From NCBI RefSeq assembly GCF_001644705.1, contig NZ_CP015137.1:4887834-4919833 (forward strand): a stretch of 32,000 bases of DNA. Direction: 5' to 3'. The notes under the pieces are model-generated. The model made no database searches. It was given only the letters and a program-made list of their open reading frames with translations, and was not told the DNA's origin. Positions 7,077 to 32,000 of the stretch are shown here, piece by piece. The DNA is from Dickeya solani IPO 2222 (GTDB taxonomy: Bacteria; Pseudomonadota; Gammaproteobacteria; Enterobacterales; Enterobacteriaceae). The position numbers and the translations under genes are program-made. The number at the start of each line of letters is the position of its first letter. The stretch's first letter is position 1.

Positions 7077-7081
7077 TGATA

Positions 7082-7124
7082 ACGGCTATAACGGTGATGT
7101 GATCGTCATCACCGTTATAGCCGT
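7082..7124. terminator. Perfect 18-bp-stem hairpin downstream of the acyltransferase gene
   Basis: ACGGCTATAACGGTGATG, a 7-nt loop, then CATCACCGTTATAGCCGT. There is no clean U-tract, so a terminator function is uncertain. Confidence 0.4.
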
Positions 7125-7297
7125 AAATCATTAATCACACGGTTTATAACAATTTCCATTCTAATTATGGGACACTTATACCTAGAGGCGCAGCACGATT
7201 CCTGTTACTGTTTGCCTCGCCGGAAAAAACCGGTACATCGATGCATCGTCTGAACGGCGTCTTTCACTTTTAGTCACCCACTGTTTTATCTGACATC

Positions 7298-17920: not shown

Positions 17921-18054
17921 TCGCTGCGGTCATTCTTTCCATTTACAACCGTCACCATCTTTACAACCACAACCTTTATAACGATAACCGTTGCAACCAA
18001 TGGCAGGCAACGCCATTACAGCGACGTTGCCCAAGCAAGGTGACGGCGCTATGG

Positions 18055-20046: not shown

Positions 20047-20550
20047 AGAATCACCATTTATGGCTCTCATAGAGTGAACGTCATTCCATGTATATCAATG
20101 ACATATCATGATAAATTACATATCGCTATTTAATAATTGCAAAGGTAATCAACATCCTTTTTTTATTGCTATCCTGCCGCCAAAAACCTATCGATGCGTT
20201 AAAAAAATCTATTGATGCGTATAAAACTCAATTCAGCAAAAAGTAGAAATAATGAATATCCGGATGCTTGATACCGTCTCGCACGATTAAAAGAACAAAT
20301 AAATCATGTGATTATGAATCAATTGAAACACCATTAAGAATGGTGAGAGAAAAACGATTTACGCTGATTATCAGGATTTTAGTTAACCGTTTTAATCCCT
20401 CATAATCTATATATCATCCTTCCAATAATAGAAAGATATATAATGCAAGGGTATAAGAACCCCCGCTGATCTATCATGACTGGATATTTCGATGAAAATA
20501 AATAGGTCGTTATCAATGACGGGAAGACAGAATAAACATCGGGATAATAT

Positions 20551-20635
20551 GCCGTTGCGAGCAGCCTTAATCGCAACGGCTACGCTTTACCTGCGGATGG
20601 GAACACCCGGCGCAGCCTGCGCGCACCGGGTGTTC
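20551..20635 (-). terminator. Two GC-rich hairpins immediately 3' of the cI-like gene
   Basis: GAACACCCGG...CCGGGTGTTC (20601-20635) and GCCGTTGCG...CGCAACGGC (20551-20580). On the minus strand the second hairpin is followed by a T-rich stretch. Confidence 0.45.
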
Positions 20636-20640
20636 GGATA

Positions 20641-21510
20641 TCAGAAGCTGGGGGTTAGCGTCAGCACCACCACACCGCGCGGCGTGACCTCATCCACCCC
20701 ACACTGGAATTGCGAACCGCCGCCTTCGACCTGCATTTTACGCCCCGGCAACAGCGCCACATCGTAGATATCGCTCTTGCCGTCGATATCCAGCAACCAG
20801 CGACCATTGCTGATACTGGTAATGCCGGTATCCACCAGCCAGGAAGACGAACTCCCTTCAACCAGCAAAGGCGCATGTAATCCCGCAGGGATAAACTGCG
20901 GATCCGCCTTCCACTCCCCCGCATCCTGCAGCTTTCCGGTTTTCAACAGATTACGCGGGATCAGGCATATGCCGCTGTCATCATGACGACTGACGGGCAC
21001 GTCATTCTGCTGCGGCGAACCTTTACCGGTTGCCAGCCACGCCAGCGACACGCCGGTATCCAGCGCGCAGGTGACCACCACATCCCCGGGAAAGAAATCA
21101 CGACGAATCCAGGTGCTGATCGTACCGGGCGCGATGCCCAGCAGATCGCCCAACTCTTTTTGCGTGCTGAAGCCATAGGCATCAAGCATGCGGCGCAGCA
21201 CAGCCTTGCCGCCCGATGACAGAATCTGCTCATAAAGCGCTTTGCCTTTCAGCGGCGATTTATGCGTAAAAACATTCGCATTTGCGAACTCTCCGGTGAC
21301 CAGCCATCCGGCATCTGCTCCGGTATCAAGCGCGCACTTCAAAATAATATTACCCGGCACGTTCCCTCGCTGAACCCAGTTACTGATTGTGTTGGTAGGT
21401 ATCTCAGTGACCTCGCTCAGTTCCTTCTGAGTCTTTACTCCGTAGCTTGACATGATGCGCTCAAGCACGAAGGCCGCAGACACGGCATTACTATTTGTAT
21501 TCAAAAACAC
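20641..21510 (-). CDS. cI: Phage 186-type CI repressor with a tandemly duplicated N-terminal HTH domain
   Basis: 289 aa with a GTG start. Residues ~15-75 and ~104-164 are paralogous. Segment 1 is VLERIMSSYGVKTQKEL...ISNW...CALDTGADAGWLVTG. Segment 2 is VLRRMLDAYGFSTQKEL...ISTW...CALDTGVSLAWLATG. Both resemble the 186 CI N-terminal domain as I recall it, and a ~115 aa C-terminal domain follows. Confidence 0.8.
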   Translation of the reverse strand: MFLNTNSNAVSAAFVLERIMSSYGVKTQKELSEVTEIPTNTISNWVQRGNVPGNIILKCALDTGADAGWLVTGEFANANVFTHKSPLKGKALYEQILSSGGKAVLRRMLDAYGFSTQKELGDLLGIAPGTISTWIRRDFFPGDVVVTCALDTGVSLAWLATGKGSPQQNDVPVSRHDDSGICLIPRNLLKTGKLQDAGEWKADPQFIPAGLHAPLLVEGSSSSWLVDTGITSISNGRWLLDIDGKSDIYDVALLPGRKMQVEGGGSQFQCGVDEVTPRGVVVLTLTPSF

Positions 21511-21520
21511 CTCACGAGTA

Positions 21521-21584
21521 TTTACATATACACGTTACGTGTCTTATAGTGTCTACACAGCACATGTAACACCATAGAACACCC
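21521..21584. promoter_or_regulatory. Lysis/lysogeny switch region: candidate promoters and operator repeats
   Basis: The rightward candidate is TTTACA (21521-26), N18, TATAGT (21545-50). The leftward candidate is GTTACA (complement of 21565-70), N16, TATAAG (complement of 21543-48). The palindrome ACACGT-T-ACGTGT sits at 21530-42. GTGTCT occurs twice (21539, 21549) and AACACC twice (21568, 21578), each pair 10 bp apart. Confidence 0.4.
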
Positions 21585-21607
21585 TGGCCTGGGGGAGATA
21601 TTGCTTT

Positions 21608-22078
21608 ATGTCGGACGAGATTTCAATTCTATCGCGCATTTCTGAGGAAAATCCTACATCAACGAGTCCATCCGTTGAGACAGAAACCGGCTTTTCGGCC
21701 GTCAATCGACGGCCTCATGCTATACCTGACCAAGCGTCGGTTTCTTTCACCGGCTTGCGCAACACGGTCTACGCCGCTGCGCCGGCATCCGAGGTGCGGC
21801 GTGCGGCATGCCACATAAGGAAACAGCATGTCCGGCTTGCCTGTATCACGCCTCAACGCGATTTTGCAAATGCAAAAACGGTCTTCGCCACCGTAACGAC
21901 AACAGCCCGGTTTTCCCACCTCATCGCTGTCTATACGCTACCGGAGCGGCACAGTCGTTCTACCGTTGTGAATGGCGACAATGATTTTAACGCAAAATTC
22001 GGAAAATCGAATTCTGGTTATATTCTGCTCGGGTTTCCGCAGGCTGCCGGCCACGATGGCAAACGAGCGTTATCATGA
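21608..22078 (+). CDS. Hypothetical protein, first ORF of the early rightward operon (occupies the Cox/Apl position but is not recognisably related)
   Basis: 156 aa. GGGGGAG lies upstream of the ATG, and an ATGA overlap couples it to the next ORF. Codon usage is mixed and I recognise no motif. Confidence 0.4.
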   Translation: MSDEISILSRISEENPTSTSPSVETETGFSAVNRRPHAIPDQASVSFTGLRNTVYAAAPASEVRRAACHIRKQHVRLACITPQRDFANAKTVFATVTTTARFSHLIAVYTLPERHSRSTVVNGDNDFNAKFGKSNSGYILLGFPQAAGHDGKRALS

Positions 22079-22605
22079 AGCCCCATTATGCCTTTACCGC
22101 CGACCATCTGCAGACCCTGCCGCCCAATTTGCGGGCGCTGATCGGAAAACACTTCGCGGATTCGCGCTGGGCGCAGACCTGCGTTTTTTACCGGCGGCTC
22201 TCCGAACGCTATCGCCGCACGCTGTGTTTTCATGCTGCACTGCACCATCGCTGGTGCGTCTATCAACTGGAAGAGATGGATGAAATGGCGCGTGAAAGAA
22301 TTGTCAGCGCACTGAATGAACTGCGTAGCGCATTCGGCTTGCCGGAAAAACAGGCGCAGAGCCAGTTGCTGCTCTCGGTTCGGGTCCTCACCCTCAGCGA
22401 GCGCCGCACGCTGTTTTTCCATGCCGGGCTCTCGACCCAGGAATTCGATCAACCCTTGCGACGCATTGACGAGTCGGATTGCCAGTGGGCGAAAGCGCTT
22501 AACCGCGCCCTCGGTGAGCTGCACCACCTGTTTGCCGAGGCGCCCGACATTCTGACCAGTATCAGACCCGAGCACTATTTCAGACCCGAACCCTATTCTC
22601 GTTGA
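22075..22605 (+). CDS. Hypothetical early protein with two internal LSER-R-TL-FHA-L repeats (possible tandem sigma70-r4/LuxR-like HTH)
   Basis: 176 aa. Its position corresponds to P2 B or 186 cII/fil/dhr. The repeats are RRLSERYRRTLCFHAAL and LTLSERRTLFFHAGLSTQEF. Confidence 0.6.
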   Translation: MKPHYAFTADHLQTLPPNLRALIGKHFADSRWAQTCVFYRRLSERYRRTLCFHAALHHRWCVYQLEEMDEMARERIVSALNELRSAFGLPEKQAQSQLLLSVRVLTLSERRTLFFHAGLSTQEFDQPLRRIDESDCQWAKALNRALGELHHLFAEAPDILTSIRPEHYFRPEPYSR

Positions 22606-22721
22606 CCGTTTCGCTGACGACGGATCTCGCCAGAAAAAACGACATCGTTAACTCAACCGCCAGCACACAGGCCGCCGCTCAGGCTGGTCCACATTGTTGC
22701 TGCTTAACATCAGGAAATTGT

Positions 22722-22937
22722 ATGAAAAAAACACAGCCGAACCACAAGGTGCCGTCTCTCGCCAGGCAGCACATCCCAAATGACGTCTGGCGTACAGACT
22801 TCGCCCATCGCTATAGCGAGCATCTGGACCAGTTGGCGCAACACGCCCGACAGGAACAGTTATCCGCTCAGGAACTGGTGGCGTTGCTGCAACAGGAAGC
22901 CGAAAACATCCGACATCAGATTTGGGAGGCGCACTAA
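22722..22937 (+). CDS. Small P2-family early protein, DUF2732-like
   Basis: 71 aa from the ATG at 22722, with AGGAAA upstream. The C-terminal helix (LSAQELVALLQQEAENIRHQIWEAH) resembles DUF2732 proteins of P2-like prophages as I recall them. A TAATG overlap links it to the next gene. Confidence 0.55.
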   Translation: MKKTQPNHKVPSLARQHIPNDVWRTDFAHRYSEHLDQLAQHARQEQLSAQELVALLQQEAENIRHQIWEAH

Positions 22938-23161
22938 TGGCAGACAGTATGGACATTTCCCAGGAGCAGCAAGCCATGCTGCTGGATGCGCAAATCGCCC
23001 ATGCCCGCAAAGCCCCTACGGCTCACGCCGCCCATGTCTGTGAGGACTGTGATGCGCCGATTCCCGAGGCCCGCCGTCAGGCGATCCCTGGCGTGACGTG
23101 CTGCGTGGCATGTCAGGAAATTCGCGAACAGAAGCAACGTCACTACCGTCCGCCGTCCTGA
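22937..23161 (+). CDS. TraR/DksA-family C4 zinc-finger protein (P2 orf82-like)
   Basis: 74 aa from the ATG at 22937, with GGGAGG upstream. It carries CEDC-N17-CVAC. Confidence 0.8.
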   Translation: MADSMDISQEQQAMLLDAQIAHARKAPTAHAAHVCEDCDAPIPEARRQAIPGVTCCVACQEIREQKQRHYRPPS

Positions 23162-23257
23162 GCGAGCTTTCACTGACTAACAAGCCAGGGTCAATCTGCG
23201 GCTATTCCCGCCGGGAATCTGGCAAACACTCATCGGGTAGGTAAACGCTGGTTAGTT

Positions 23258-25384
23258 ATGACGTCCGACAACGCTGAAAAAAACGCCGACAACCGTGGCA
23301 ACCGCTGGGTATACCCGTGGAATGCGCCCCGCCCCGCCATTCTGCCCGAATCCAGCGTATTGTCTTCGGATACCTTGCAGCAGGGTCAGGCGGTACTGTA
23401 TCGGCTGGCGTTGCTGCCGCGTTTTCTGGCCGGTCATTTCCGCCGCCGCTTCGACTATCTGAAGCAGCAGCAGGGGCTGGGCGCCGCGTTCAGCTATCTG
23501 TTATCGGTGGTTCAGCGGCGGCTCTGGCCGCGAATCGACGCCGTCAACGCCCGCTACCGAATGAATACGGCCTTATCTTCCCACTTCATCAGCGAAGCGG
23601 AACAGTATCACCAGTTGCCGGATATGCCGGACAAGGTTCTGCGCGCGTTTGCGAGCCGCATCGCCGCCCACATGAACGATGCCTACCATGCCCACTGCGA
23701 ACGCTATCTGCAGGAATGCCCCGGCGATCATCAGGCGGAGCTATTCAGTGATGAAACACAAGCGCGTATCTACGGTCAGCTAGCCACACTGGCACAAGCC
23801 GTGAACGTGACGCCCGCCCACTGGCATCGCCATCAAAACGGGACACTCACGCTGGAACAGGCATGTGCCGGCATTATGCGGCTGGTCACCCCCCGATGGT
23901 GGGAGCGTCAGTTGAAAATTCAGCGAACCCGCTGGCGTGAGGCATTGTGGATTGCCAGCGGCGAGGTAAGCCGGGCCGCATCTCCCTTTCTCAGCCGCCA
24001 GGCGCTGCAGGATATCCGCTACCGCCGTCTGGCGACGCTGGATTTTCTGAAAAGTCGCGAGCTGGAAAATACCCGTAACGGCGAGCGGGTCGATTTGATC
24101 GATAAAGTCATGGGCAGTATCGCTAATCCGGATATTCGCCGTATGGAACTGATGACCATGTTGGCGGGTATTGAGCGTTACGCTACCGCACACCAGCACA
24201 TCGGTATGCTGGTGACGTTCACTGCCCCCGGCCACTATCATCCCACCCGTACCCGCGGCCATGACCGGGTATTGGTCAACACCGGATGGATGCCGGATTG
24301 CCCTTCGCCCAAAATGACCCAGCATTATCTGGTCAAGTTATGGGGAAAAATCCGCACCGCGCTCAAAGACCGTAAACTGCAAATCTACGGGTTACGAGTC
24401 GTTGAACCCCATCACGACGGCACGCCGCACTGGCACATGATGCTGTATTGCGAACGCGCACAGCGTCAGGCGATCGTCGACATCCTGCGCCGCTATGCCC
24501 AGCCAAATGAAAGCGACCGTGCCGCGGCGCATAACCGCCGGTTTGACTGCAAGCACATCAATAAAGGCGGCGCGGCGGCATACGTCGCCAAATACATCGC
24601 CAAAAATATCGATGGCTATGCGCTGGATGGCGAAGCAGACCACGAAACCGGAAAACCGCTGAAAGACATGGCCGCCTCCGCCTCGGCCTGGGCCTCGATC
24701 TGGCGCATTCCTCAATTCCATTTCATCGGGTTGCCCACGGTTGGCGCGTACCGCGAATGTCGACGCATTCGCAGCCGCTCATTACAGGATGCGCTGGGCG
24801 AACAGGCCGAAACGGTGAGATTCGCCGCGGATCGCGGTGACTTCGCGGCGTATATCGAGGCGCAGGGCGGCGCGAATGTCGCCCGGCAACACCAGTCGGT
24901 TCGTGTCGCCAGAGCCGCCAGCGAACGGCTGAACGCCTACGATGAAACGATTGTGCGTACCGTCGGTATTTTTTCCGCCCAGCGCGGCCGCGAGCGAGTA
25001 TTCACCACCCGACCGGATGAATGGCAAATCGTGGCCAAAAACCATGCCGGCGGCGATGTCGCCGATCGCCATCGTTCTGCTCTGCCTTGGAGTTCTGTCA
25101 ATAACTGTGGGGGCGTGCTTTCACCCGACGCACTCCCTTATCCATTTCGCGATATTCCCCGCGTTCCTTCAGCGCGGCTAACCTATTTTCAGCGAGATCG
25201 ACTGGCGTCGTTGCGCCCCCGCCTCAGTCAGCAAGGTATTGATACCTCACGCTGGGAACGGGAGGCACTGGTGCGCGGCGCCAAAGTGAAGATTGACGGC
25301 CAACTGATTGATGAATTTAAGAATAAAGCTATATCCGCCGTTGATGAAAAGCGCATCATGAGCACACAGGTGCTGCACTTATGA
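23258..25384 (+). CDS. A: P2 gpA-type replication initiation endonuclease (rolling circle, HUH)
   Basis: 708 aa. It has LRVVEPHHDGTPHWHMML (the HUH region) and AAYVAKYIAKNIDGYALDG (catalytic Tyr pair). It appears collinear with P2 gpA along its length, as I recall that sequence. Confidence 0.92.
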   Translation: MTSDNAEKNADNRGNRWVYPWNAPRPAILPESSVLSSDTLQQGQAVLYRLALLPRFLAGHFRRRFDYLKQQQGLGAAFSYLLSVVQRRLWPRIDAVNARYRMNTALSSHFISEAEQYHQLPDMPDKVLRAFASRIAAHMNDAYHAHCERYLQECPGDHQAELFSDETQARIYGQLATLAQAVNVTPAHWHRHQNGTLTLEQACAGIMRLVTPRWWERQLKIQRTRWREALWIASGEVSRAASPFLSRQALQDIRYRRLATLDFLKSRELENTRNGERVDLIDKVMGSIANPDIRRMELMTMLAGIERYATAHQHIGMLVTFTAPGHYHPTRTRGHDRVLVNTGWMPDCPSPKMTQHYLVKLWGKIRTALKDRKLQIYGLRVVEPHHDGTPHWHMMLYCERAQRQAIVDILRRYAQPNESDRAAAHNRRFDCKHINKGGAAAYVAKYIAKNIDGYALDGEADHETGKPLKDMAASASAWASIWRIPQFHFIGLPTVGAYRECRRIRSRSLQDALGEQAETVRFAADRGDFAAYIEAQGGANVARQHQSVRVARAASERLNAYDETIVRTVGIFSAQRGRERVFTTRPDEWQIVAKNHAGGDVADRHRSALPWSSVNNCGGVLSPDALPYPFRDIPRVPSARLTYFQRDRLASLRPRLSQQGIDTSRWEREALVRGAKVKIDGQLIDEFKNKAISAVDEKRIMSTQVLHL

Positions 25385-25385
25385 G

Positions 25386-25428
25386 TTGACGAATACTACT
25401 GAATAAAGTACTGTATATAAATACAGTC
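25386..25428 (+). promoter_or_regulatory. SOS-regulated promoter: TTGACG-N17-TACTGT overlapped by a LexA box
   Basis: TACTGTATATAAATACAGTC at 25409-25428 is an exact CTGT-N8-ACAG and matches the 20-bp E. coli consensus at 18 of 20 positions. The -35 hexamer is at 25386-91 and the -10 hexamer lies inside the box. Confidence 0.8.
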
Positions 25429-25447
25429 TCACAATGGAAGAGGTACC

Positions 25448-25669
25448 GTGGAACAGACTGAAAACCGAGAGCTGACCTTATCAAGGATTCGATTAATTGC
25501 CGATATGTCATTGATATCACAATGTGATCCTGAAGAAATGAAAATCGCCATGTCGTTGATCGCCGACTTATCTCACGGCGAACTCCCGGATAGTGATTAT
25601 CAACAGTTTCTGAAGAACAGCAGTGATGGACAGCAGCTTAAAGCATGGTTCGAACAACAAATGTTGTAA
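25448..25669 (+). CDS. Small acidic protein under the LexA box, a candidate Tum-like antirepressor
   Basis: 73 aa with a GTG start and GGAAGAGG upstream. It starts 20 bp downstream of the LexA box and occupies the same post-A position as 186 tum. I recognise no sequence similarity. Confidence 0.55.
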   Translation: MEQTENRELTLSRIRLIADMSLISQCDPEEMKIAMSLIADLSHGELPDSDYQQFLKNSSDGQQLKAWFEQQML

Positions 25670-25987
25670 GGGATTTCGATGGATAATAATGATCGACGTG
25701 AAATTCCCTGGCCGATCGCCAGAGGCACGTGCAAATTAATGGATTTTCTCTGTGGCTAACACGCCAGACTAATACGCAGCAAAACTTTTTCGTATCCAGA
25801 CCGCTCAATAAAAGGTCTGACCGGCCAAAGCCGGTATATACATTTTGGCATGAATTTTAATTCTGACTCAGTGCAAACCTGTTCGTTGGTCATGTTTTTC
25901 TCTTTAACACAGTGGTACGGAATTAGGGTACGCCCATGTAAAAACATCTGTGAGTAACATGCCCCGGTCTTCCCGGTACCTTTAATA

Positions 25988-26110
25988 CACAATATCCCCT
26001 GCCAGCAAGGATTGGCAGGGGTCACAATAATCTAGGATCACAATAAATAGGTGCCACAATAAGTCGGCGCCATGATAAGTCGTCGGCACAATAAGCAAGG
26101 GGCACCATAA
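25988..26110 (+). repeat. Left iteron array: seven copies of CACAATAA-like octamers
   Basis: Copies start at 25988 (CACAATAT), 26023, 26039, 26055, 26071 (CATGATAA), 26087 and 26103 (CACCATAA). The last six have an exact 16-bp period. A 9-bp-stem hairpin (25996-26021) separates copies 1 and 2. Confidence 0.9.
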
Positions 26111-26139
26111 ATAAACACCCTGACATCATTTTCCACCGG

Positions 26140-26238
26140 TTGTTGTGCTTCCTGTTGTTGTATTTCCTGTTGTTGTATTTCCAGTTGTTGTATTTCCAGT
26201 TGTTGTACTTCCTATATGTTGTGCCTCCTATTGTTGTG
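26140..26238 (+). repeat. Right iteron array: seven copies of TTGTTGTR, in inverted orientation relative to the left array
   Basis: Copies start at 26140, 26155, 26170, 26185, 26200, 26216 and 26231, a 15-bp period with one 16-bp step. The four central units are near-identical: TTGTTGTATTTCC(T/A)G. Confidence 0.9.
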
Positions 26239-26252
26239 CCATCCGTCCGACA
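26235..26252 (+). promoter_or_regulatory. TGT-N12-ACA dyad (P2 late-promoter activator-site pattern) upstream of gpX
   Basis: TGT is at 26235-37 and ACA at 26250-52. GATAAA at 26290-95 is a possible -10, which puts the dyad near -55 to -58. Confidence 0.35.
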
Positions 26253-26317
26253 CCTTCCCCGTATTGCGACCGCCATCGTTCCTCTGGAGGATAAAGGACC
26301 CGAGATAACCCGTTTTA

Positions 26318-26359
26318 CTCGATCTTTTTTATCTGAATCTCTCGATCTTTTTATCTGAA
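26318..26359 (+). repeat. Tandem ~20-bp direct repeat just upstream of gpX
   Basis: CTCGATCTTTTTTATCTGAA (26318-37) and CTCGATCTTTTTATCTGAA (26341-59). The second ends 14 bp before the X start codon. Confidence 0.85.
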
Positions 26360-26373
26360 CCTAAAGGTATCAT

Positions 26374-26577
26374 ATGAAAGTTTACGCCCATCAGGACGAC
26401 ACCCTGGACGCGCTCTGTTACCGCTATTACGGCCGCACGCAAGGCGTGGTGGAAACGGTTATGCTGTCCAATCAGGGGCTTGCGGATCTTGGCCCCATTC
26501 TGCCACACGGCACCGCCGTCACTTTGCCCGACATGAATGTTTCCGGCTCACAGGAAAGCGTCAATCTCTGGGAATAA
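26374..26577 (+). CDS. X: P2 gpX-like tail protein (LysM-like)
   Basis: 67 aa. MKVYAHQDDTLDALCYRYYGRTQGVVETVMLSNQGLADLG..LPHGTAVTLPD...VNLWE is nearly collinear with P2 gpX as I recall it. Confidence 0.88.
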   Translation: MKVYAHQDDTLDALCYRYYGRTQGVVETVMLSNQGLADLGPILPHGTAVTLPDMNVSGSQESVNLWE

Positions 26578-26652
26578 CTCCGGACTATCAGGCTCCATGC
26601 TCGCCTTCGGCCGATAATACATGGAGATCGCCGCCACACCAGGAACCTTATC

Positions 26653-27114
26653 ATGCAAAAACCACAAAGCCTCAAACTTGCACTGACCACCGCACTACCC
26701 GCGCTGGGCAATGCGTTACAGTTTCGGATCCAGGAGGGGGAAATCGCCGCGTTGCAGGAGCCGTCCCTGTCGTTTGAATACCGCTATCAGCTGCTGCTGA
26801 CGCTGAATAATTTCGCTGACAATCCCGACACCCTTTTTGTCACCCTGCTGCTATGGGTGCGCCAGAACCAGCCGGACTTGTTAACGCGTGAAAGCATCCG
26901 CAACAAAGGCATCAGCTTTACGATCGACAACAATGCGGACAACACCAGCACGCTGTCCGTTCGGCTCAACCTGACAGAGCGCAACCGAGTCAACGAACAG
27001 AATCAAACCCTGCAGGTACAGTATGAACCGGAGCCAACGCCGCCCGAACCGGTTAGCCGCCCTACGGCGCTGTATATCGCCGGCGAACTGGTCAGCCAGT
27101 GGAAAGGGAACTGA
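26653..27114 (+). CDS. R: P2 gpR-like tail completion protein
   Basis: 153 aa. Motifs shared with my recollection of P2 gpR are KP.SL..ALT, W(V/L)R.NQPD, LTER, PPEPV.RP and LYI.GELVS.W. Confidence 0.75.
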   Translation: MQKPQSLKLALTTALPALGNALQFRIQEGEIAALQEPSLSFEYRYQLLLTLNNFADNPDTLFVTLLLWVRQNQPDLLTRESIRNKGISFTIDNNADNTSTLSVRLNLTERNRVNEQNQTLQVQYEPEPTPPEPVSRPTALYIAGELVSQWKGN

Positions 27115-27142
27115 TCCCTTCAACTATCATTTCCTCCATGAT

Positions 27143-27168
27143 GGCCGTTGCGAATACGGCCTGTTTTT
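27143..27168 (+). terminator. Rho-independent terminator after gpR
   Basis: GGCCGT, loop tgcgaat, ACGGCC, then TGTTTTT. Confidence 0.65.
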
Positions 27169-27448
27169 CCTGAGAAACGATAAGCAATGAGTATTTTATG
27201 ATTTAAATATTCATCCCATTTATTTCTAGTTCGTAATTTTCATAATAAACTTTATCTACGCGGTCTGTCTGATGCACCTTCCTTCATTTTCTTCATCGCA
27301 AATTATTTCAGAAATCGCTTTCTACTGTTATCGCCTGGGATTAATCAGTAATACCCTATGACCTTCCATGTTTAATCAGCAAAAAAAACTGCTGATGTTA
27401 TTACCTCACCCCCTCTATTTTGGATTGAATAACTGACGGGAAACACAA

Positions 27449-28213
27449 TTGGATAAAAGCCGAAGTTTGCCACGTAATATGCGAAAGGAATTATTCGATT
27501 TTAAACATTTCGGCAACAATGAGGGATTCCTTTATTACCCGAAAATCATGGAAGATATCCGTCCTTTTCTGCCTGAAAACACCATCGCCCATTACAGCGG
27601 TAATCGTGAAAAATCCAGAAAATTGCTTACTCTGTTCGGTGGTCATTTGGGTGACCCGTATTGCAGCCAGACTGCCGCTCCCAGCGCGTCACCGCAGCTC
27701 ACCAACATGTTCTCTTCCTACGGACAGCTGACGGCCAGAGCGGATTCGCCAACGCCGGTGTTTACCCAGCCCGATTTTCTGCTGCTGTATTGCCTGTGTG
27801 AAACGTCCGTCTTCAAGGTGCTGGTTGGCATTGCCAGTCTTCGCCATGTCATTCAACATCTGGACCGGCAAACCCGCACCGAATTATGCCTGCCGCAGTA
27901 TGCGCTGCGCCCCGGCGTCATCAGCCAGGAACACACACCGTTCAGTCTCCTCAGCGCTGACCACGACCCCTTTCTGACCTGTACGCCTGACCTGGCGTAT
28001 CCCCTGACCTCGCCCGCCAGATATGCGTTGCTGAAGCTCGACCCGCTGCTGAAAAACAGCATGCGATGGCTCAATCTGAAACGGGGCGATCTGCTCATTA
28101 TCGACAACCGCCGCAGTACCCACAACTGCGTGCCATTCACCCCGTTTTTCCGACAGGATTCACCTTACCTGATGCACATGTTCGTCAATAAACCGGACCC
28201 GACACGATACTGA
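27449..28213 (+). CDS. Clavaminate-synthase/TauD-like (Fe(II)/2OG dioxygenase fold) protein, possibly lacking the proximal metal ligands. It is inserted where gpS is expected.
   Basis: 254 aa with a TTG start and GGGAAA upstream. The C-terminal GDLLIIDNRRSTH...PF.P.F resembles the GDxxxxDNxRxxHGR signature of VioC/AsnO/TauD-type enzymes. PDFLLLYCLC resembles their PDxxxLxCL motif. I could not find a clear HxD/E upstream. About 330 bp of AT-rich DNA precedes it. Confidence 0.55.
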   Translation: MDKSRSLPRNMRKELFDFKHFGNNEGFLYYPKIMEDIRPFLPENTIAHYSGNREKSRKLLTLFGGHLGDPYCSQTAAPSASPQLTNMFSSYGQLTARADSPTPVFTQPDFLLLYCLCETSVFKVLVGIASLRHVIQHLDRQTRTELCLPQYALRPGVISQEHTPFSLLSADHDPFLTCTPDLAYPLTSPARYALLKLDPLLKNSMRWLNLKRGDLLIIDNRRSTHNCVPFTPFFRQDSPYLMHMFVNKPDPTRY

Positions 28214-28362
28214 TTCCTTACCCAGGCCAGGCAACGCCACTGCGCTTTATCTTGATGCAAAGGTCGTAATGAATAAGGTCGGGGCGCAAAGATCGGTGGG
28301 ACCATCCGCCACACAACCACGGCGAATTGTCTCATCCTGCGGGAAGACGCATGCTTCCCACC

Positions 28363-29004
28363 ATGAATACATACGAATATCTCTCCGAAATCCAGCGCGC
28401 ACTGCGTAACCTGATTCGTATCGGCGTCATCACCGAGGTCGATACCCAACAGGCACGCTGCCGCGTGCAGACCGGTGGCATGGTCACCGGGTGGCTCCAC
28501 TGGCTGTCCCGTCGTGCGGGGAGTTCCCGCGAATGGTGGGCACCGTCGGTGGGTGAACAGGTGTTACTGCTTGCAATAGGAGGCGAACTCAATACGGCAT
28601 TTGTCTTACCGGGTATTTACAGCGAACACCATCCGGCCCCATCGGCCTCTGCGGATGCCTGCCACATCCGCTTCCCTGATGGTGCGGTGATGGAATACGA
28701 ACCGGCCAACGGCGCGCTGACCGTCACCGGTATCAAGAGCGCGGCAGTCGTCGCATCGGAATCGGTGACCGTCACCACGAAAAACGTCACCATCAACGCC
28801 AGCCAGCGCATCACGCTGGACACCCCGGAAGTCGTCTGTACGCACAAATTAATCACCCAGACCATCGACGTTCAGCAAGGCGGCAACATCACCGGTAGCG
28901 TCACCCACTCGGGGGGAAGTTTCTCCTCCAATGGCGTGGTGGTGCATACCCATCAGCACAGCGGCGTACAAAGTGGCGGCGGCACAACAGGAGGACCTCT
29001 ATGA
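28363..29004 (+). CDS. V: P2 gpV baseplate spike
   Basis: I chose the ATG at 28363 (MNTYEYLSEIQRALRNLIRIG), which aligns with the P2 gpV N-terminus. Shared segments include RCRVQTGGM, WWAPSVGEQVL, HIRFPDGAV.EYEP and LDTPEVVCT. Confidence 0.92.
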   Translation: MNTYEYLSEIQRALRNLIRIGVITEVDTQQARCRVQTGGMVTGWLHWLSRRAGSSREWWAPSVGEQVLLLAIGGELNTAFVLPGIYSEHHPAPSASADACHIRFPDGAVMEYEPANGALTVTGIKSAAVVASESVTVTTKNVTINASQRITLDTPEVVCTHKLITQTIDVQQGGNITGSVTHSGGSFSSNGVVVHTHQHSGVQSGGGTTGGPL

Positions 29005-29351
29005 CCAGCACGTCATACACCGGCATGAATCGCAGCACCGGCGGCAGCCTCAGCGATCTGGAACATTTGCGTCAAAGCGTGCGCGATATTCTGACCACCC
29101 CGCAAGGCAGCCGTGTCATGCGGCGCAATTACGGTTCGCTGCTTTCCACCCTGATCGACCAGCCGCAAACGCCCGCGCTGAAACTACAGGTGCAGGCGGC
29201 CTGCTATGTCGCGTTGCTGAAGTGGGAACCGCGGCTGACGCTGACGTCCATCTCAATGGAAAGCCACTACGACGGCCAGTTGATTGTGGATATTTCCGGC
29301 ACCCTGGCCGGCAACGGCACATCCCTTTCGTTAACCATTCCCGTGAGCTGA
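29001..29351 (+). CDS. W: P2 gpW baseplate wedge protein (GPW/gp25 family)
   Basis: 116 aa with an ATGA overlap with V. The motif is L.QSVRDILTTP.GSRVMRR.YGS.L. Confidence 0.9.
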   Translation: MTSTSYTGMNRSTGGSLSDLEHLRQSVRDILTTPQGSRVMRRNYGSLLSTLIDQPQTPALKLQVQAACYVALLKWEPRLTLTSISMESHYDGQLIVDISGTLAGNGTSLSLTIPVS

Positions 29352-29355
29352 GATC

Positions 29356-30264
29356 ATGCCTCTTATCGACTTAAGTCAGTTACCCGCCCCTAGCGTGGTC
29401 GAAACGCTGGATTATGAAACCCTGTACGCCACACGCAAAGAAACCCTGCTGTCGCTCTACAGCGCCGATGAGCGTGAAGCCATTGCGCGCGCCCTGACGC
29501 TGGAGTCGGAACCGCTGGTGAAACTGCTGCAGGAAAACGCCTACCGCGAGCTGCTGCTGCGCCAGCGCATCAATGAAGCCGCTCAGGCCGGGATGCTGGC
29601 GTTTGCCCAGGGCAACGATCTGGACCAGTTGGGCGCCAACGTCAACGTCTCCCGACTGGTGATCACCCCGGCTGACAATACCACCGTTCCCCCGACCGCC
29701 GCCGTGATGGAATCCGATACCGATTTCCGTCTGCGCATTCAGCAGGCTTATGAAGGTCTGAGCGTGGCAGGCTCCATCGGCGCCTACCAGTTCCACGGGC
29801 GCAGCGCCAGCGGCCAGGTGGCGGATATTTCGGTCATCAGCCCTGGTCCCGCTCAGGTGCTGGTGTCGGTCCTGTCGCGGGAAAATGACGGCACGGCCAG
29901 CGATACGCTGCTTGCCACCGTCAATGCGGCGCTGAACGCCGAAGACGTCAGGCCGGTGGCTGACCGGGTTACCGTCAAATCGGCGGTGATTGTTCCTTAC
30001 GATATCAATGCCGTGCTTTACCTGTATCCCGGCCCGGAAGTCGAGCCGATCCGCGCCGCCGCCGAGAAGAAACTGCAGAGTTACGTCAGCACCCAGCACC
30101 GGCTGGGTCGCGATATCCGCCGTTCCGCCATCTACGCCGCACTGCATGTGGAAGGGGTTCAGCGGGTAGAGCTGGCTCGCCCGGCGGAGGATATCGTGCT
30201 GGACGATACCCAGGCGTCGCACTGCACCGGTTATACCCTGACGCTGGGGGGAACGGATGAATAA
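29356..30264 (+). CDS. J: P2 gpJ baseplate assembly protein
   Basis: 302 aa Baseplate_J-like protein (IDLSQLPAP.VVE.LDYE). It overlaps gene I by 8 nt. Confidence 0.9.
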   Translation: MPLIDLSQLPAPSVVETLDYETLYATRKETLLSLYSADEREAIARALTLESEPLVKLLQENAYRELLLRQRINEAAQAGMLAFAQGNDLDQLGANVNVSRLVITPADNTTVPPTAAVMESDTDFRLRIQQAYEGLSVAGSIGAYQFHGRSASGQVADISVISPGPAQVLVSVLSRENDGTASDTLLATVNAALNAEDVRPVADRVTVKSAVIVPYDINAVLYLYPGPEVEPIRAAAEKKLQSYVSTQHRLGRDIRRSAIYAALHVEGVQRVELARPAEDIVLDDTQASHCTGYTLTLGGTDE

Positions 30265-30868
30265 AAGCCCCCTGCTGCCCCCCGGTTCATCGCCGCTGGA
30301 GCATGCCGTTGCCGTCACCGGCGCCAAACTGGAAGCCGTGCCGATTCCTCTGCGCCAACTCTGGAATCCGGAGACCTGTCCGGTCGAGCTGCTGCCTTAT
30401 CTGGCCTGGACGCTATCGGTTGACCGCTGGGATGAAAGCTGGACGGAAACCGTCAAACGCAAAGTCATCAGGGACGCATTCTTTATCCACCGCCACAAGG
30501 GCACTATCGGCGCGCTGCGCCGGGTCGTTGAGCCGCTGGGATACCTGATTCGCATCAAGGAGTGGTGGCAAACCGGCGACGCCCCCGGCACCTTCCGGCT
30601 GGATATCGGTATTCAGGAATCAGGGATCACCGAAGAGTCCTTTCAGGAGCTGGAGCGCCTGATTGCCGACGCCAAACCGGTTAGCCGCCAGATGCTGGGG
30701 TTAAACATCAATCTGGACAGTTCGGGTACGCTGTTAATGGGTGCCGGCTCCTATAGCGGCGACGAACTCACCATCTACCCCTACTTCCCTGAAACCATCA
30801 GCGTTTTTGGCGAAGAGATCAATGGGGCGGCCATTCACCTGATTGATGATATCTACGTCGGTGGCTGA
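30257..30868 (+). CDS. I: P2 gpI tail/baseplate protein
   Basis: 203 aa. Segments LLP.GSSPLE, LWNP.TCP..LLP.LAW..SVDRWDE.W and HKGTIGA.RRVVEPLGYLI match my recollection of P2 gpI. Confidence 0.9.
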   Translation: MNKSPLLPPGSSPLEHAVAVTGAKLEAVPIPLRQLWNPETCPVELLPYLAWTLSVDRWDESWTETVKRKVIRDAFFIHRHKGTIGALRRVVEPLGYLIRIKEWWQTGDAPGTFRLDIGIQESGITEESFQELERLIADAKPVSRQMLGLNINLDSSGTLLMGAGSYSGDELTIYPYFPETISVFGEEINGAAIHLIDDIYVGG

Positions 30869-30885
30869 TTTTCCCCCTCGTTCCA

Positions 30886-30909
30886 AGCCAGCCTGCGCTG
30901 GCTTTTTTT
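30886..30909 (+). terminator. Rho-independent terminator between I and H
   Basis: AGCCAGC, loop ctgc, GCTGGCT, running into a run of seven T. Confidence 0.75.
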
Positions 30910-30932
30910 ATGGAGGAATCGCCGCCGGATGT

Positions 30933-30950
30933 TGTCTCCCCACGCTAACA
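30933..30950 (+). promoter_or_regulatory. GTTGT-N12-ACAAC dyad (P2 late-promoter pattern) upstream of H
   Basis: TGT is at 30933-35 and ACA at 30948-50, extendable to a 5-bp dyad. CATACT at 30985-90 as the -10 puts the dyad centre near -55. Confidence 0.4.
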
Positions 30951-31225
30951 ACGCCCGCCGGATGCGCCAACGGCGCCGACTTCGCATACTACCTCCACCC
31001 AGGCTGTGTCCCCGGGTAACGCATTTCACGACCAACACGGACGCGCACCTACCCCGGCGCATCACCCAACCTGATAACGCCTTTGGAGTCTGCGCCCGCG
31101 ACACGAACCGGGACACAGCCTACCCACAGCCGGGCATACCGGCTGGTCATCGCCCGTCGGCCAGCCCGGCTTCTCCGATGCCGCCCTGCGGCATCCTATC
31201 CTGTCAACCGTAATGAGTAATCTGC

Positions 31226-32000
31226 ATGAGTACAAAATACTTTGCTTTACTGACGAACACTGGCGCGGCGAAGCTGGCTAACGCCACCGCGCTGGGTAGC
31301 CATCTGGCTATCACGCAAATGGCGGTGGGCGATGGCGGCGGCAGCCTGCCGACCCCGACCCCCGCTCAAACCAAACTGGTCAATGAGAAACGCCGCGCCG
31401 CCCTCAACGCGTTAAGCATCGACCCGCAAAACACCAACCAGATCATGGCCGAGCAGGTGATTCCTGAGAATGAAGGCGGCTGGTGGATCCGCGAAATCGG
31501 TCTGTACGACAGCGACGGCGATCTGATCGCTGTCGCAAACTGCGCCGAGACTTATAAACCGCAGTTGCAGGAAGGATCAGGCCGGGTGCAAACCGTGCGT
31601 ATGATCCTGATTGTCAGCACGACCGAAACCATTACCCTGAAGATTGACCCGGCGGTGGTGCTGGCCACTCGTCAATACGTCGATGATAGCGCCATTGAGG
31701 TCAAGGCCTACGCCGACACCCAACTCAACGCTCATGTTGCAGCCGCCAACCCTCATCCGCAGTACGCACCGCTCAATAGTCCGGCATTGACCGGCGCGCC
31801 CACCGCGCCAACGGCGGAGAAAAGCGTGAACTCCACGCAGCTGGCCACCACCGCGTTTGTCAAAAACGTCGCCCTGCTCAAAGCGCAGAACGGCGCCGAC
31901 ATCGCCGACAAATCGGCTTTTCTCGCAAACCTGGGTTTAAGCGACGTGCTGAAAACCACCGACCTGGCGGGCATACCGCTGCCCTGGCCGCAGGCGACGC
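31226..32000 (+). CDS. H: P2 gpH tail fibre, N-terminal part (open at the window end)
   Basis: Read directly: MSTKYFALLTNTGAAKLANATALGS...MAVGDGGG...GGWWIREIGLYD...IAVANCAETYKP..EGSGR...PLNSPALTGAPTAPTA..NSTQLATTAFV. There is no stop codon before base 32000. Confidence 0.9.
   Translation, partial: MSTKYFALLTNTGAAKLANATALGSHLAITQMAVGDGGGSLPTPTPAQTKLVNEKRRAALNALSIDPQNTNQIMAEQVIPENEGGWWIREIGLYDSDGDLIAVANCAETYKPQLQEGSGRVQTVRMILIVSTTETITLKIDPAVVLATRQYVDDSAIEVKAYADTQLNAHVAAANPHPQYAPLNSPALTGAPTAPTAEKSVNSTQLATTAFVKNVALLKAQNGADIADKSAFLANLGLSDVLKTTDLAGIPLPWPQAT

What the first reader, a model, noticed from the sequence alone, without database searches (positions are those of the whole stretch)
25988..26238. 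Two opposed arrays of 8-bp iterons (seven copies each, 16-bp and 15-bp periods) form a 250-bp imperfect inverted structure
The left arm carries CACAATAA-type octamers with an exact 16-bp period from 26023 to 26103. An extra copy at 25988 is set apart by a 9-bp-stem hairpin. The right arm carries TTGTTGTR octamers at a 15-bp period, and its reverse complement is CACAACAA. The outermost units also match in their spacers: TCTAGGAT and ATAGG on the left correspond to TAGGAGG and ATAGGAAG on the reverse-complemented right. The two arms therefore appear to derive from one duplicated and inverted array. Left spacers are purine-rich and right spacers are pyrimidine-rich. If the plus strand is transcribed, each CACAAUAA pairs with UUGUUGUG through a G-U wobble, whereas the minus-strand RNA would carry C-A mismatches. 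This gives a weak directional hint of an RNA-level structure. The architecture resembles protein-loading iteron sites such as plasmid or phage origins, parC-type centromeres and cooperative operator arrays. I know of no such array at this position in P2 or 186. The GTTGT core is also the half-site of the late-promoter-like dyads found nearby.
Basis: seen in the sequence. Interest (0 to 1): 0.78.

Follow-up and report, generated by a model that had tools for sequence, protein, structure and literature searches.

The report
Repeat arrays flanking a tailocin promoter
The two opposed repeat arrays are real, but they are fast-changing tandem copies of pieces of a phage-P2-type late promoter that drives tail gene X in the Dickeya solani tailocin cluster, not a replication origin or centromere.

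Summary
Six CACAATAA-type octamers sit in exact 16-bp phase (26023-26110), with one outlier at 25988. Seven TTGTTGTR octamers follow at a 15/16-bp period (26140-26238).

The window is Dickeya solani. The arrays lie between orf73, which follows replication gene A, and tail gene X of the head-less P2-like tailocin cluster (P2D1 type).

The outermost right unit is the left half of a dyad, GTTGT-N12-ACACC. This dyad is conserved in every Dickeya species examined. Each has a GATAAA-like -10 at +57 (+60 in D. aquatica). The same dyad type precedes H, V and the sheath gene. It matches the activator sites annotated in the phage P2 record. An Ogr/Delta zinc-finger gene follows gpD in a sister cluster.

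The arrays themselves are not conserved. D. dianthicola has one unit on each side. D. dadantii and D. fangzhongdai have decayed left units and one right unit. D. solani strains carry 7/7, 8/5 or 8/4.

I conclude these are tandem repeats of variable copy number (VNTR-type), seeded on promoter elements. They may act as auxiliary or decoy activator half-sites. Origin, centromere and structured-RNA readings are not supported. One point is unexplained: left octamers are much better conserved than their spacers.

The parts
25448..25669 (+). orf73, the last early-region gene after gpA; the left boundary of the intergenic region
   Evidence: It matches phrog_1993. It is conserved in Dickeya, Musicola, Lonsdalea and Prodigiosinella. 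In a Yersinia P2-like phage its homologue lies between gpA and the Q/P head genes.
25988..25995 (+). Outlier octamer CACAATAT. On the minus strand it forms the T-rich tail of the hairpin terminator.
   Evidence: It is a 7/8 match, not significant on its own, and poorly conserved in sister species.
25996..26021 (-). Perfect 9-bp-stem hairpin, terminator-like on the minus strand
   Evidence: The stem is conserved in D. solani, D. dadantii, D. dianthicola and D. fangzhongdai. The zeae group has a different 12-bp-stem hairpin followed by a minus-strand T-run at the equivalent place (read directly).
26023..26110 (+). Left array: six phased 16-bp units, each a CACAATAA-type octamer plus an 8-nt spacer. 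The reverse complement TTATTGTG contains a -10-like TATTGT.
   Evidence: Octamer pairwise identity is 0.88 against 0.35 for spacers, Fisher p = 3e-5. Other species carry 1, about 3 or about 5 units.
26111..26139 (+). Conserved single-copy core between the arrays (ATAAACACCCTGACATCATTTTCCACCGG)
   Evidence: It aligns in D. solani, D. dadantii and D. dianthicola, and partly in D. fangzhongdai and D. undicola. ACCGG plus the first right unit matches the P2 pF activator site at 14/15 positions.
26140..26238 (+). Right array: seven units of 15 or 16 bp, TTGTTGT(G/A) plus a pyrimidine-rich spacer. These are tandem copies of the activator left half-site.
   Evidence: D. solani alleles have 7, 5 or 4 units. 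All other species examined have a single unit.
26233..26254 (+). Dyad GTTGT-N12-ACACC, the predicted Ogr-type activator binding site of late promoter pX. Its left half is the last right-arm unit.
   Evidence: It is conserved in all Dickeya species sampled and in Prodigiosinella. It has the same form as the activator sites annotated in P2 NC_001895.
26290..26295 (+). Predicted -10 hexamer GATAAA of pX, 57 bp from the start of GTTGT; predicted transcription start near 26300
   Evidence: GATAAA, GATAGT, GATAAC or GATAGC occurs at +57 in D. solani, D. fangzhongdai, D. dianthicola, the D. zeae group, D. oryzae and Prodigiosinella. After a 3-nt register correction it also sits at +57 in D. dadantii and D. 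undicola. In D. aquatica it is at +60. In P2, GTTGT lies at -66/-67 from the mapped starts. No transcription start was measured.
26318..26362 (+). Direct repeat CTCGATCTTTTT(T)ATCTGAAYCT, two copies, in the predicted X leader
   Evidence: It is single-copy in D. dadantii and two-copy in D. dianthicola.
26374..26577 (+). Tail gene X (LysM-type baseplate protein), the first gene served by pX
   Evidence: phrog_46 and PF05489.
28296..28317 (+). pV-like dyad GTGGG-N12-ACAAC just upstream of V
   Evidence: Better dyads sit at the same place in D. aquatica and Musicola.
30931..30952 (+). pH-like perfect dyad GTTGT-N12-ACAAC between I and H
   Evidence: It is conserved in D. dianthicola, D. oryzae, the zeae group and D. 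aquatica.

Best explanation
**What the region is.** It is the upstream region of a phage-P2-type, activator-dependent late promoter, here called pX. This promoter drives the X-R tail genes of the head-less P2-like tailocin cluster of Dickeya solani.

**Inferred ancestral state.** It is most simply seen in D. dianthicola and resembled the shared pP/pO control region of P2. The order was:
- a minus-strand terminator hairpin;
- a -10-like TATTGT on the minus strand, which reads CACAATAA on the plus strand;
- about 30 bp of core sequence;
- one activator dyad, GTTGT-N12-ACACC;
- a -10 GATAAA at +57;
- the leader and gene X.

**What happened in the lineage leading to D. solani.** Two short segments were amplified head-to-tail.
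- A 16-bp unit carrying the CACAATAA element forms the left array. This amplification is older, and its units have partly decayed in D. dadantii and D. fangzhongdai.
- A 15-bp unit carrying the activator left half-site TTGTTGTG forms the right array. This amplification is specific to D. solani and is recent.

**Which units work.** Only the promoter-proximal right unit forms the complete dyad at the correct distance from the -10. It is the working activator site, bound by the Ogr/Delta-family zinc-finger protein encoded at the end of the cluster, which then recruits RNA polymerase.

**The extra units.** They are dispensable and variable in copy number. They are most probably weak extra or decoy half-sites for the same activator. 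At most they tune the level or threshold of pX firing.

**Shown versus inferred.**
- Shown: the anatomy, dyad conservation, geometry, species and strain distribution, and the presence of an Ogr gene in a sister cluster.
- Inferred: activator binding, the transcription start, the direction of evolutionary change, and any tuning effect.
For: 1. **Context.** The cluster runs 186-type CI, B, DUF2732, zf-DksA, gpA, orf73, the arrays, then X, R, V, W, J, I, H. There are no head genes. The window is D. solani. The cluster is the published P2D1-type dickeyocin (PMC10719855).
2. **Dyad conservation.** GTTGT-N12-ACACC at 26233-26254 is conserved in D. solani, D. dadantii, D. fangzhongdai, D. dianthicola, D. 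undicola, D. oryzae, the zeae group and D. aquatica, and also in Prodigiosinella. A GATA(A/G)N hexamer sits at +57 (+60 in D. aquatica).
3. **Other late operons.** The same dyad type precedes H (30931), V (28296) and the sheath gene (L034, about 18646).
4. **P2 reference.** Record NC_001895 annotates one activator binding site shared by divergent pO and pP, plus sites for pV and pF. In each, GTTGT lies 66-67 bp upstream of the mapped start. The TGT-N12-ACA/Ogr rule is stated in PMC3931495. ACCGG plus the first right unit is 14/15 identical to the P2 pF site.
5. **Activator gene.** An Ogr_Delta gene (PF04606, 76.6 bits) lies directly after gpD in the D. fangzhongdai cluster. One also lies in the Lonsdalea remnant.
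6. **Arrays are lineage-specific.** Unit counts (left/right) are 1/1 in D. dianthicola, about 5 decayed/1 in D. dadantii 3937, and about 3 decayed/1 in D. fangzhongdai. The zeae, oryzae and undicola group has none. D. solani has 7/7, 8/5 and 8/4.
7. **Promoter geometry is preserved.** All indels are whole internal units, so the last unit, the dyad and the -10 keep their spacing in every allele.
8. **Independent tandem duplications in the same intergenic region.** A 16-bp unit occurs 3-4 times over the -10 in D. dianthicola, a 22-bp unit in D. dadantii, a 22/23-bp unit in the leader, and 9- and 15-bp units in D. fangzhongdai.
9. **Within-species variation.** Among four D. dadantii alleles, 0 of 122 promoter/leader positions vary. 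In the array zone 6 of 95 vary.
10. **Left-element position.** In D. dianthicola the CACAATAA element places TATTGT on the minus strand at -34..-39. That is 55 bp from the dyad's other half, the same distance as the P2 -10 elements.
11. **Arrays are not needed for production.** D. solani and D. dadantii 3937 both make tailocins (PMC11974492).
Against: - No transcription start, activator binding or expression data exist for this promoter. The literature says P2D1 regulation 'remains to be elucidated'.
- The Ogr gene was seen in D. fangzhongdai and Lonsdalea loci, not in D. solani itself. The cluster end lies beyond the window and beyond the fetched D. solani loci.
- My Ogr protein search listed no Dickeya-named protein.
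- Left-array octamers are far better conserved than their spacers (0.88 against 0.35, p = 3e-5). Spacers of different species are unalignable although the flanks are more than 90% identical. Simple neutral decay of a duplication does not predict this. It leaves room for a dedicated binding function or for an unusual turnover mechanism.
- The single-copy state of D. dianthicola could be a collapse of arrays rather than the ancestral state.
- The relic leftward-promoter reading rests on geometry alone. It is only roughly conserved in the zeae group.
- Half-sites in direct repeat may not bind an activator that recognises a dyad.
Confidence: 0.62

Rival explanations
1. Dedicated protein-loading iterons. 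On this reading the arrays are a replication origin, a parC/parS-type centromere, or a cooperative operator array for CI or another cluster protein, which polymerises on phased octamers in two opposed blocks.
For: - The octamers are phased and better conserved than their spacers.
- There are two opposed blocks, and the period of 15-16 bp is about 1.5 helical turns.
- The cluster keeps gpA, gpB and an unusual CI with two HTH domains.
Against: - The arrays are absent or single-copy in sister species with the same genes.
- Copy number and arm ratio vary within D. solani.
- No ParA/ParM/ParR/ParB or iteron-type Rep genes are nearby.
- The region has no DnaA box, IHF site or AT-rich unwinding element.
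- The P2 gpA origin is a nick site inside gene A, and the homologous sequence lies inside the Dickeya A gene.
- Only a single one-mismatch copy of the octamer lies in the CI-pR control region, within the -10 of pR and no more than chance predicts.
- blastn found nothing similar in phages, plasmids or E. coli genomes.
Confidence: 0.1
2. Pure slippage junk in a relic region. On this reading the repeats have no sequence-specific role at all, and their similarity to promoter elements only reflects what happened to lie there.
For: - Several unrelated tandem duplications occur in the same intergenic region across lineages.
- SNP density is highest in the array zone of D. dadantii.
- Left units have decayed in D. 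dadantii and D. fangzhongdai.
- The arrays are dispensable for tailocin production.
Against: - Octamers are conserved over spacers with exact phase in D. solani.
- Right-unit cores keep the full TGTTGTG/TGTTGTA half-site.
- This rival differs from the best explanation only in denying any residual activator binding. Sequence alone cannot settle that point.
Confidence: 0.2
3. RNA-level element. On this reading a transcript through the arrays forms a long imperfect hairpin (plus strand, with G-U pairs). Alternatively it is a minus-strand sRNA carrying about six phased GGA motifs that ends at the 26021-25996 terminator, for example a CsrA/RsmA sponge.
For: - The plus-strand fold has z = -2.6.
- There is a terminator-like hairpin on the minus strand.
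- The reverse complement of the right array reads (C/T)ACAACAA-(C/T)(A/T)GGAA(A/G), giving phased GGA motifs.
Against: - The minus-strand fold is no better than shuffles, z = -0.5.
- No promoter-like site was found on either strand in 25300-26700.
- There is no Rfam match.
- The arrays are absent in sister species, so covariation cannot be assessed.
- Arm numbers change independently between strains (7/7, 8/5, 8/4), which would break a hairpin.
Confidence: 0.05
4. Coding repeat. On this reading the 15-bp array encodes a pentapeptide repeat in ORF 26140-26358 (+) or ORF 26022-26276 (-).
For: The 15-bp period is a multiple of three. The 30- and 45-bp indels keep the plus-strand ORF in frame.
Against: - Neither ORF has a Pfam match.
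- The plus-strand ORF has a TTG start and I saw no ribosome-binding site upstream of it.
- 16-bp indels in the left array, and in the D. dianthicola repeat, shift the frame.
- The ORFs are not conserved in species with single units.
Confidence: 0.02

Closest known systems
Phage P2 late promoters pP/pO, pV and pF, activated by Ogr (relatives: 186 B, P4 Delta)
   Same: - The dyad has the TGT-N12-ACA form (extended: GTTGT-N12-NCAAC).
- GTTGT lies about 66 bp upstream of the start, and the -10 lies about 55-57 bp from GTTGT. I saw no -35 hexamer at a workable distance.
- One site is shared by divergent promoters in P2.
- The same motif precedes each late operon.
- An Ogr/Delta gene follows D.
   Different: - The promoter sits in front of X, because genes O to L are deleted.
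- The leftward partner has no genes left to transcribe.
- In D. solani the left half-site is amplified to 4-7 direct copies, and an inverted CACAATAA element to 6-8 copies.
- I know of no such arrays at P2 or 186 late promoters, and P2 shows none.
P-box repeats upstream of Pseudomonas aeruginosa pyocin genes, bound by the activator PrtN
   Same: Short tandem repeats lie upstream of tailocin or bacteriocin genes and are recognised by a cluster-specific activator under SOS-linked control. The P-box details are from my own knowledge. PrtN and PrtR are mentioned in PMC12297226.
   Different: The sequence and the activator family differ. As far as I know, P-boxes are conserved and required. Here the extra copies are specific to one species and variable in number.
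Plasmid and phage iterons and parC-type centromeres (for example R1 parC, with two blocks of direct repeats around a promoter)
   Same: Phased short repeats lie in two blocks beside a promoter, and the core is conserved over the spacer.
   Different: There is no cognate Rep or Par gene and no conservation across related elements. The arm ratio is variable and origin hallmarks are absent. The blocks here are inverted relative to each other.
Variable-number tandem repeats in bacterial promoter regions (contingency-type loci)
   Same: Head-to-tail units change in whole-unit steps between strains of one species, close to a promoter.
   Different: The units are long (15-16 bp) and lie upstream of the activator site. 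They therefore do not alter the spacing of core promoter elements. No phenotypic switching is known.

Membership tests
P2-type Ogr/Delta-dependent late promoter | Dyad TGT-N12-ACA (GTTGT-N12-ACAAC-like) upstream of the operon | tested here: met
   GTTGT-N12-ACACC lies at 26233-26254. It is conserved across Dickeya and in Prodigiosinella. The form matches the P2 annotated sites.
P2-type Ogr/Delta-dependent late promoter | Dyad centred about 55 bp upstream of the transcription start, with a -10 element and no usable -35 | tested here: inconclusive
   GATAAA at +57 from GTTGT fits the P2 geometry, where the -10 lies at +54/+55. TTGCGA lies 20 bp from the -10, too far to act as a -35. The consensus scan finds no sigma-70 promoter. 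No start has been measured.
P2-type Ogr/Delta-dependent late promoter | Ogr/Delta-family zinc-finger activator encoded by the same element | tested here: inconclusive
   A PF04606 gene lies directly after gpD in the D. fangzhongdai cluster (L159 from 9266) and in the Lonsdalea remnant. The end of the D. solani cluster is outside the window and outside the fetched D. solani loci.
P2-type Ogr/Delta-dependent late promoter | The same motif precedes the other late operons of the element | tested here: met
   It occurs upstream of H at 30931-30952, V at 28296-28317 and the sheath gene at L034 about 18646.
P2-type Ogr/Delta-dependent late promoter | Transcription depends on the activator | not testable with these tools
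   This needs reporter or deletion experiments.
Variable-number tandem repeat (minisatellite) | Head-to-tail copies whose number differs between strains in whole-unit steps | tested here: met
   D. solani alleles differ by +1 left unit and by -2 or -3 right units.
Variable-number tandem repeat (minisatellite) | Single-copy or absent at the orthologous site in related species | tested here: met
   D. dianthicola has 1/1. D. dadantii and D. fangzhongdai have 1 right unit. The zeae, oryzae and undicola group has none.
Replication-origin iterons | Cognate iteron-binding initiator gene adjacent, with DnaA boxes or an AT-rich unwinding element | tested here: not met
   gpA is a nicking endonuclease whose origin lies inside its own gene. 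The region has no DnaA box, IHF site or AT-rich block.
Replication-origin iterons | Conservation of the iteron set among related replicons | tested here: not met
parC/parS-type centromere | Adjacent partition genes (a ParA/ParM-type NTPase plus a centromere-binding protein) | tested here: not met
   No such families were found among the neighbouring genes in the window or in related loci.
Structured RNA | Fold clearly more stable than shuffles, with covariation or a known family | tested here: inconclusive
   z = -2.6 on the plus strand and -0.5 on the minus strand. There is no Rfam match. Covariation cannot be assessed because the arrays are lineage-specific. Arm numbers vary independently.

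The most novel reading that the evidence does not exclude
The opposed arrays could be a copy-number-tunable bank of activator half-sites and -10-like elements. On this reading they titrate the Ogr-type activator or RNA polymerase, or recruit them cooperatively, at the first tail operon. That would set the induction threshold, or the fraction of cells that commit to lethal tailocin production. Strain-to-strain changes in unit number would then act as a heritable 'dial'. The selective conservation of the left octamers over their spacers would be the trace of that function.
Probability: 0.12. Interest if true: 0.6.

Novelty: new variant of a known kind. Interest (0 to 1): 0.38.

Why it matters
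Published work on the Dickeya P2D1 tailocin states that its regulation is unknown (PMC12297226). It mentions intergenic variation only as 'data not shown' (PMC11974492).

This analysis gives a concrete, testable regulatory map. It predicts four P2-type activator-dependent promoters (pX, pV, pH, pF) and an Ogr-family activator at the end of the cluster.

It also identifies the pX upstream region as a hotspot of tandem-repeat polymorphism. Examples are the D. solani half-site arrays and the D. dianthicola repeat over the -10. Such polymorphism could underlie strain differences in tailocin output. The arrays are also a potential typing marker for the otherwise highly clonal D. solani.

It removes the more exotic readings (origin, centromere, riboregulator).

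Tried and rejected
- **blastn of the 421-bp region.** Searches against phages, plasmids and E. coli genomes gave no match. Megablast of 12 kb found only gpA fragments in Yersinia and Enterobacter phages.
- **Rfam.** An E-value search of 20000-32000 found nothing.
- **IMG/VR pattern scans.**
  - The 15-bp-period GTTGTTGT pattern hit more than 119 unrelated contigs, many of them giant-virus bins. I took these to be unrelated coding triplet repeats and did not open them.
  - The CACAATAA pattern hit 4 unrelated contigs, which I also did not inspect. Neither scan was informative.
- **Related loci.** The genome-contig scan with the orf73 alignment returned only 4 loci. I obtained the species sampling through exact-protein look-ups instead.
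- **Ogr search.** It listed no Dickeya-named protein. The gene was found by reading the DNA after gpD in L159.
- **CI operator idea.** Only a single one-mismatch copy of the octamer lies in the CI-pR control region. It sits inside the -10 of pR and is no more than chance predicts.
- **gpA origin idea.** The P2 nick region and its Dickeya counterpart share only CAATAA with the octamer. I judged this to be chance.
- **Coding idea.** The two ORFs across the arrays have no Pfam match and are not frame-conserved.
- **orf 27449-28213.** It co-occurs with the left array only because both are restricted to the solani/dadantii/fangzhongdai clade. From memory it looks enzyme-like rather than DNA-binding.
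Full report
**1. Observation**

Six octamers start at 26023, 26039, 26055, 26071, 26087 and 26103, in exact 16-bp phase. Four read CACAATAA; the others are CATGATAA and CACCATAA. A 7/8 copy, CACAATAT, lies at 25988. It is separated from the array by a perfect 9-bp-stem hairpin at 25996-26021.

Seven octamers of the form TTGTTGT(G/A) start at 26140, 26155, 26170, 26185, 26200, 26216 and 26231. Tandem Repeats Finder scores the arrays 65 and 119.

The octamer is not over-represented in the window as a whole: 23 matches against 20 expected. Eight matches within 260 bp, however, exceeds every one of 300 simulated windows, where the maximum was 4. The purine/pyrimidine asymmetry of the spacers is also real.

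**2. Context**

The window is Dickeya solani chromosome. Ordinary chromosomal genes fill the first 20 kb, including prc, proQ, pqiAB and a chemoreceptor gene.

A P2-like cluster follows:
- a 186-type CI repressor;
- an unknown 156-aa gene;
- gpB, DUF2732 and a DksA/TraR zinc-finger gene;
- replication gene A;
- orf73;
- a 704-bp intergenic region that contains the arrays;
- tail genes X, R, an unknown 244-aa gene, then V, W, J, I and H.

Head genes are absent. This is the cluster type described as dickeyocin P2D1 (PMC10719855). In an intact Yersinia P2-like phage, the orf73 homologue is followed by accessory genes, then Q and P on the opposite strand, then the P/O promoter region, then O and N. 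The arrays therefore lie where the head module and its control region used to be.

**3. The promoter**

The last right-arm unit is the left half of a dyad, GTTGT-N12-ACACC (26233-26254). The dyad is present at the same place in D. solani, D. dadantii, D. fangzhongdai, D. dianthicola, D. undicola, D. oryzae, the zeae group and D. aquatica. A closely related dyad sits there in the more distant Prodigiosinella (Serratia sp. ATCC 39006).

In six of these lineages a GATA(A/G)N hexamer lies exactly 57 bp from the start of GTTGT. The same holds for D. dadantii and D. undicola after a 3-nt register correction. In D. aquatica GATAAA lies at +60.

The same dyad type precedes H (30931-30952, a perfect GTTGT-N12-ACAAC), V (28296-28317) and the sheath gene.

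The GenBank record of phage P2 annotates one activator binding site shared by the divergent pP and pO promoters, plus sites for pV and pF. In all of them GTTGT lies 66-67 bp upstream of the mapped start. The rule that P2 late promoters carry TGT-N12-ACA and depend on Ogr is stated in PMC3931495. The first right-arm unit together with its left flank (ACCGGTTGTTGTGCT) matches the P2 pF site at 14 of 15 positions.

An Ogr/Delta zinc-finger gene (PF04606, 76.6 bits) lies directly after gpD in the D. fangzhongdai cluster. One also lies in a degraded Lonsdalea remnant. I could not reach the end of the D. solani cluster, so the activator gene is inferred for this strain.

**4. The arrays are not conserved**

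| Lineage | Left units | Right units | Notes |
|---|---|---|---|
| D. dianthicola | 1 | 1 | CACAATAA and TTGTTGTG, 30 bp apart |
| D. dadantii 3937 | about 5, partly decayed | 1 | for example CATAATAA, CCTAAAAG, CACGCTAA |
| D. fangzhongdai | about 3, decayed | 1 | |
| D. undicola, D. oryzae, zeae group | none | single conserved TTGTTGTG, no array | ERIC-like insertion, or a short AACAACAC-N6-GTGTTGTT palindrome, abuts the conserved TTGTTGTG |
| D. solani | 7 or 8 | 7, 5 or 4 | alleles 7/7, 8/5, 8/4 |

The D. solani alleles differ by whole units. One further D. solani allele differs only by 1-2-bp spacer indels.

Every indel is internal, so the geometry of last unit, dyad and -10 is untouched. 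The arm ratio is not held constant. This argues against any mechanism that needs matched arms, such as a hairpin, a cruciform or symmetric loading.

D. solani and D. dadantii 3937 both produce tailocins (PMC11974492). The extra units are therefore neither required nor inhibitory.

**5. A hotspot of tandem duplication**

The same intergenic region carries other, unrelated tandem duplications in different lineages:
- a 16-bp unit, 3-4 copies, over the -10 in D. dianthicola;
- a 22-bp unit in D. dadantii;
- a 22/23-bp unit in the X leader of D. solani and D. dianthicola;
- 9- and 15-bp units in D. fangzhongdai.

Among four D. dadantii alleles, no position varies in the 122 bp from the dyad to the X start codon. 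Six of 95 positions vary in the decayed array zone. The promoter is constrained; the array zone is not.

**6. What the left element may be**

In the single-copy state of D. dianthicola, CACAATAA occupies -40..-33 relative to GTTGT. Its reverse complement places TATTGT 55 bp from the other half of the dyad. That is the distance of the -10 elements from the P2 dyads, and P2 uses one dyad for two divergent promoters.

The hairpin immediately to the left is terminator-like on the minus strand only. The zeae group has a different hairpin with a minus-strand T-run at the equivalent place.

I therefore read the left element as the -10 of a relic leftward (pP-like) promoter that now fires into a terminator. 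This step rests on geometry alone and is only roughly conserved in the zeae group.

**7. Mechanism and confidence**

Most likely (0.62), the arrays are lineage-specific tandem amplifications seeded on two elements of a relic bidirectional P2-type late promoter. Only the promoter-proximal right unit works as part of the activator site of pX.

The extra units are dispensable. They may bind the activator weakly and tune pX, but that is inference.

One observation is left unexplained. In the left array the octamers are 88% identical pairwise and the spacers 35% (Fisher p = 3e-5). The spacers of different species cannot be aligned although the flanks are more than 90% identical. Possible causes are:
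- selection on the octamer;
- unit turnover driven by octamer microhomology;
- template switching between the arms (12/14 complementary stretch).

**8. Rivals**

- **Origin or centromere iterons.** There is no cognate gene, no origin hallmark and no conservation. The gpA origin lies inside gene A.
- **CI operators.** Only a single one-mismatch copy of the octamer lies in the CI-pR control region, inside the -10 of pR and no more than chance predicts.
- **RNA.** The plus-strand fold has z = -2.6 and the minus strand -0.5. There is no Rfam family and no promoter-like site, and the arm numbers vary independently.
- **Coding.** The overlapping ORFs have no family match and are not frame-conserved.
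- **Pure junk.** This remains a serious alternative (0.2). It differs from my reading only in denying residual binding.

**9. Novelty and verdict**

The promoter type is known. Finding it in the Dickeya tailocin, whose regulation the literature calls unresolved, adds a new member. Opposed half-site arrays of variable copy number at such a promoter are a new variant.

The finding is a real and tidy piece of anatomy with an ordinary core and one open question. Interest is 0.38.

Noticed in passing
window 20641-21510 (-): The CI-type repressor has two tandem PF07022 helix-turn-helix domains plus the 186 CI C-terminal domain, 270-289 aa in all. From memory, 186 CI has a single HTH domain and is about 190 aa.
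   Followed up: partly
window 21521-21550: A good sigma-70 early promoter, TTTACA-N17-TATAGT, faces the early operon. An ACACG-TTA-CGTGT palindrome lies between its hexamers and is a likely CI operator.
   Followed up: no
L021-L024 (D. dianthicola), about 464-527 of the orf73-X intergenic region: A 16-bp tandem repeat, GTTCTTCTGGAGGATA, occurs 3-4 times and duplicates the predicted -10 of pX. A D. dianthicola strain with a complete cluster is reported not to make tailocins (PMC11974492). A link between the two is untested.
   Followed up: partly
window 26318-26362: A 22/23-bp direct repeat, CTCGATCTTTTT(T)ATCTGAAYCT, occurs twice in the predicted X leader, each copy with a GATC site. It is single-copy in D. 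dadantii.
   Followed up: partly
L017, L018, L025, L028 (D. undicola, D. oryzae, zeae group), directly upstream of the pX dyad: ERIC-like repetitive elements are inserted between the dyad and the upstream inverted half-site. In L026 and L027 the uninterrupted site is the palindrome AACAACAC-N6-GTGTTGTT.
   Followed up: partly
L005/L013 (D. solani CP024710) 2463-3302; L166/L167 (CP110362): In one D. solani genome a truncated gpD (215 aa) is joined to the DUF2732 gene. This suggests a rearranged or tandem second copy of the cluster. In one D. dadantii record, two copies sit at the two ends of the record, probably an untrimmed circular overlap.
   Followed up: no
L034 12383-17174: Cargo genes (phytase-like, MFS transporter, Smr) and a resolvase-type invertase with flanking tail-fibre C-terminal segments interrupt the tail cluster between H and the sheath gene.
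   Followed up: no
window 27449-28213 (+): An unknown 244-254-aa gene (phrog_18172) is inserted between R and V. It is present only in D. solani, D. dadantii and D. fangzhongdai. From memory its C-terminus resembles TauD-type dioxygenases. It has no Pfam match.
   Followed up: partly
L161-L163 (Serratia sp. ATCC 39006 lineage) 6167-7421: This relative keeps holin, lysozyme and LysB/LysC genes between X and R. The Dickeya clusters have lost them, so Dickeya tailocin release must depend on lysis genes elsewhere.
   Followed up: no
window 25988-25994 and 26023-26029: CACAATA flanks the 26-bp hairpin on both sides, like a target-site duplication around a small palindromic insertion.
   Followed up: no
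window 17940-18000: A short run of TTTACAACC-type repeats (15-18 bp period) lies downstream of the chemoreceptor gene. It superficially resembles the reverse complement of the right arm but is probably unrelated.
   Followed up: no
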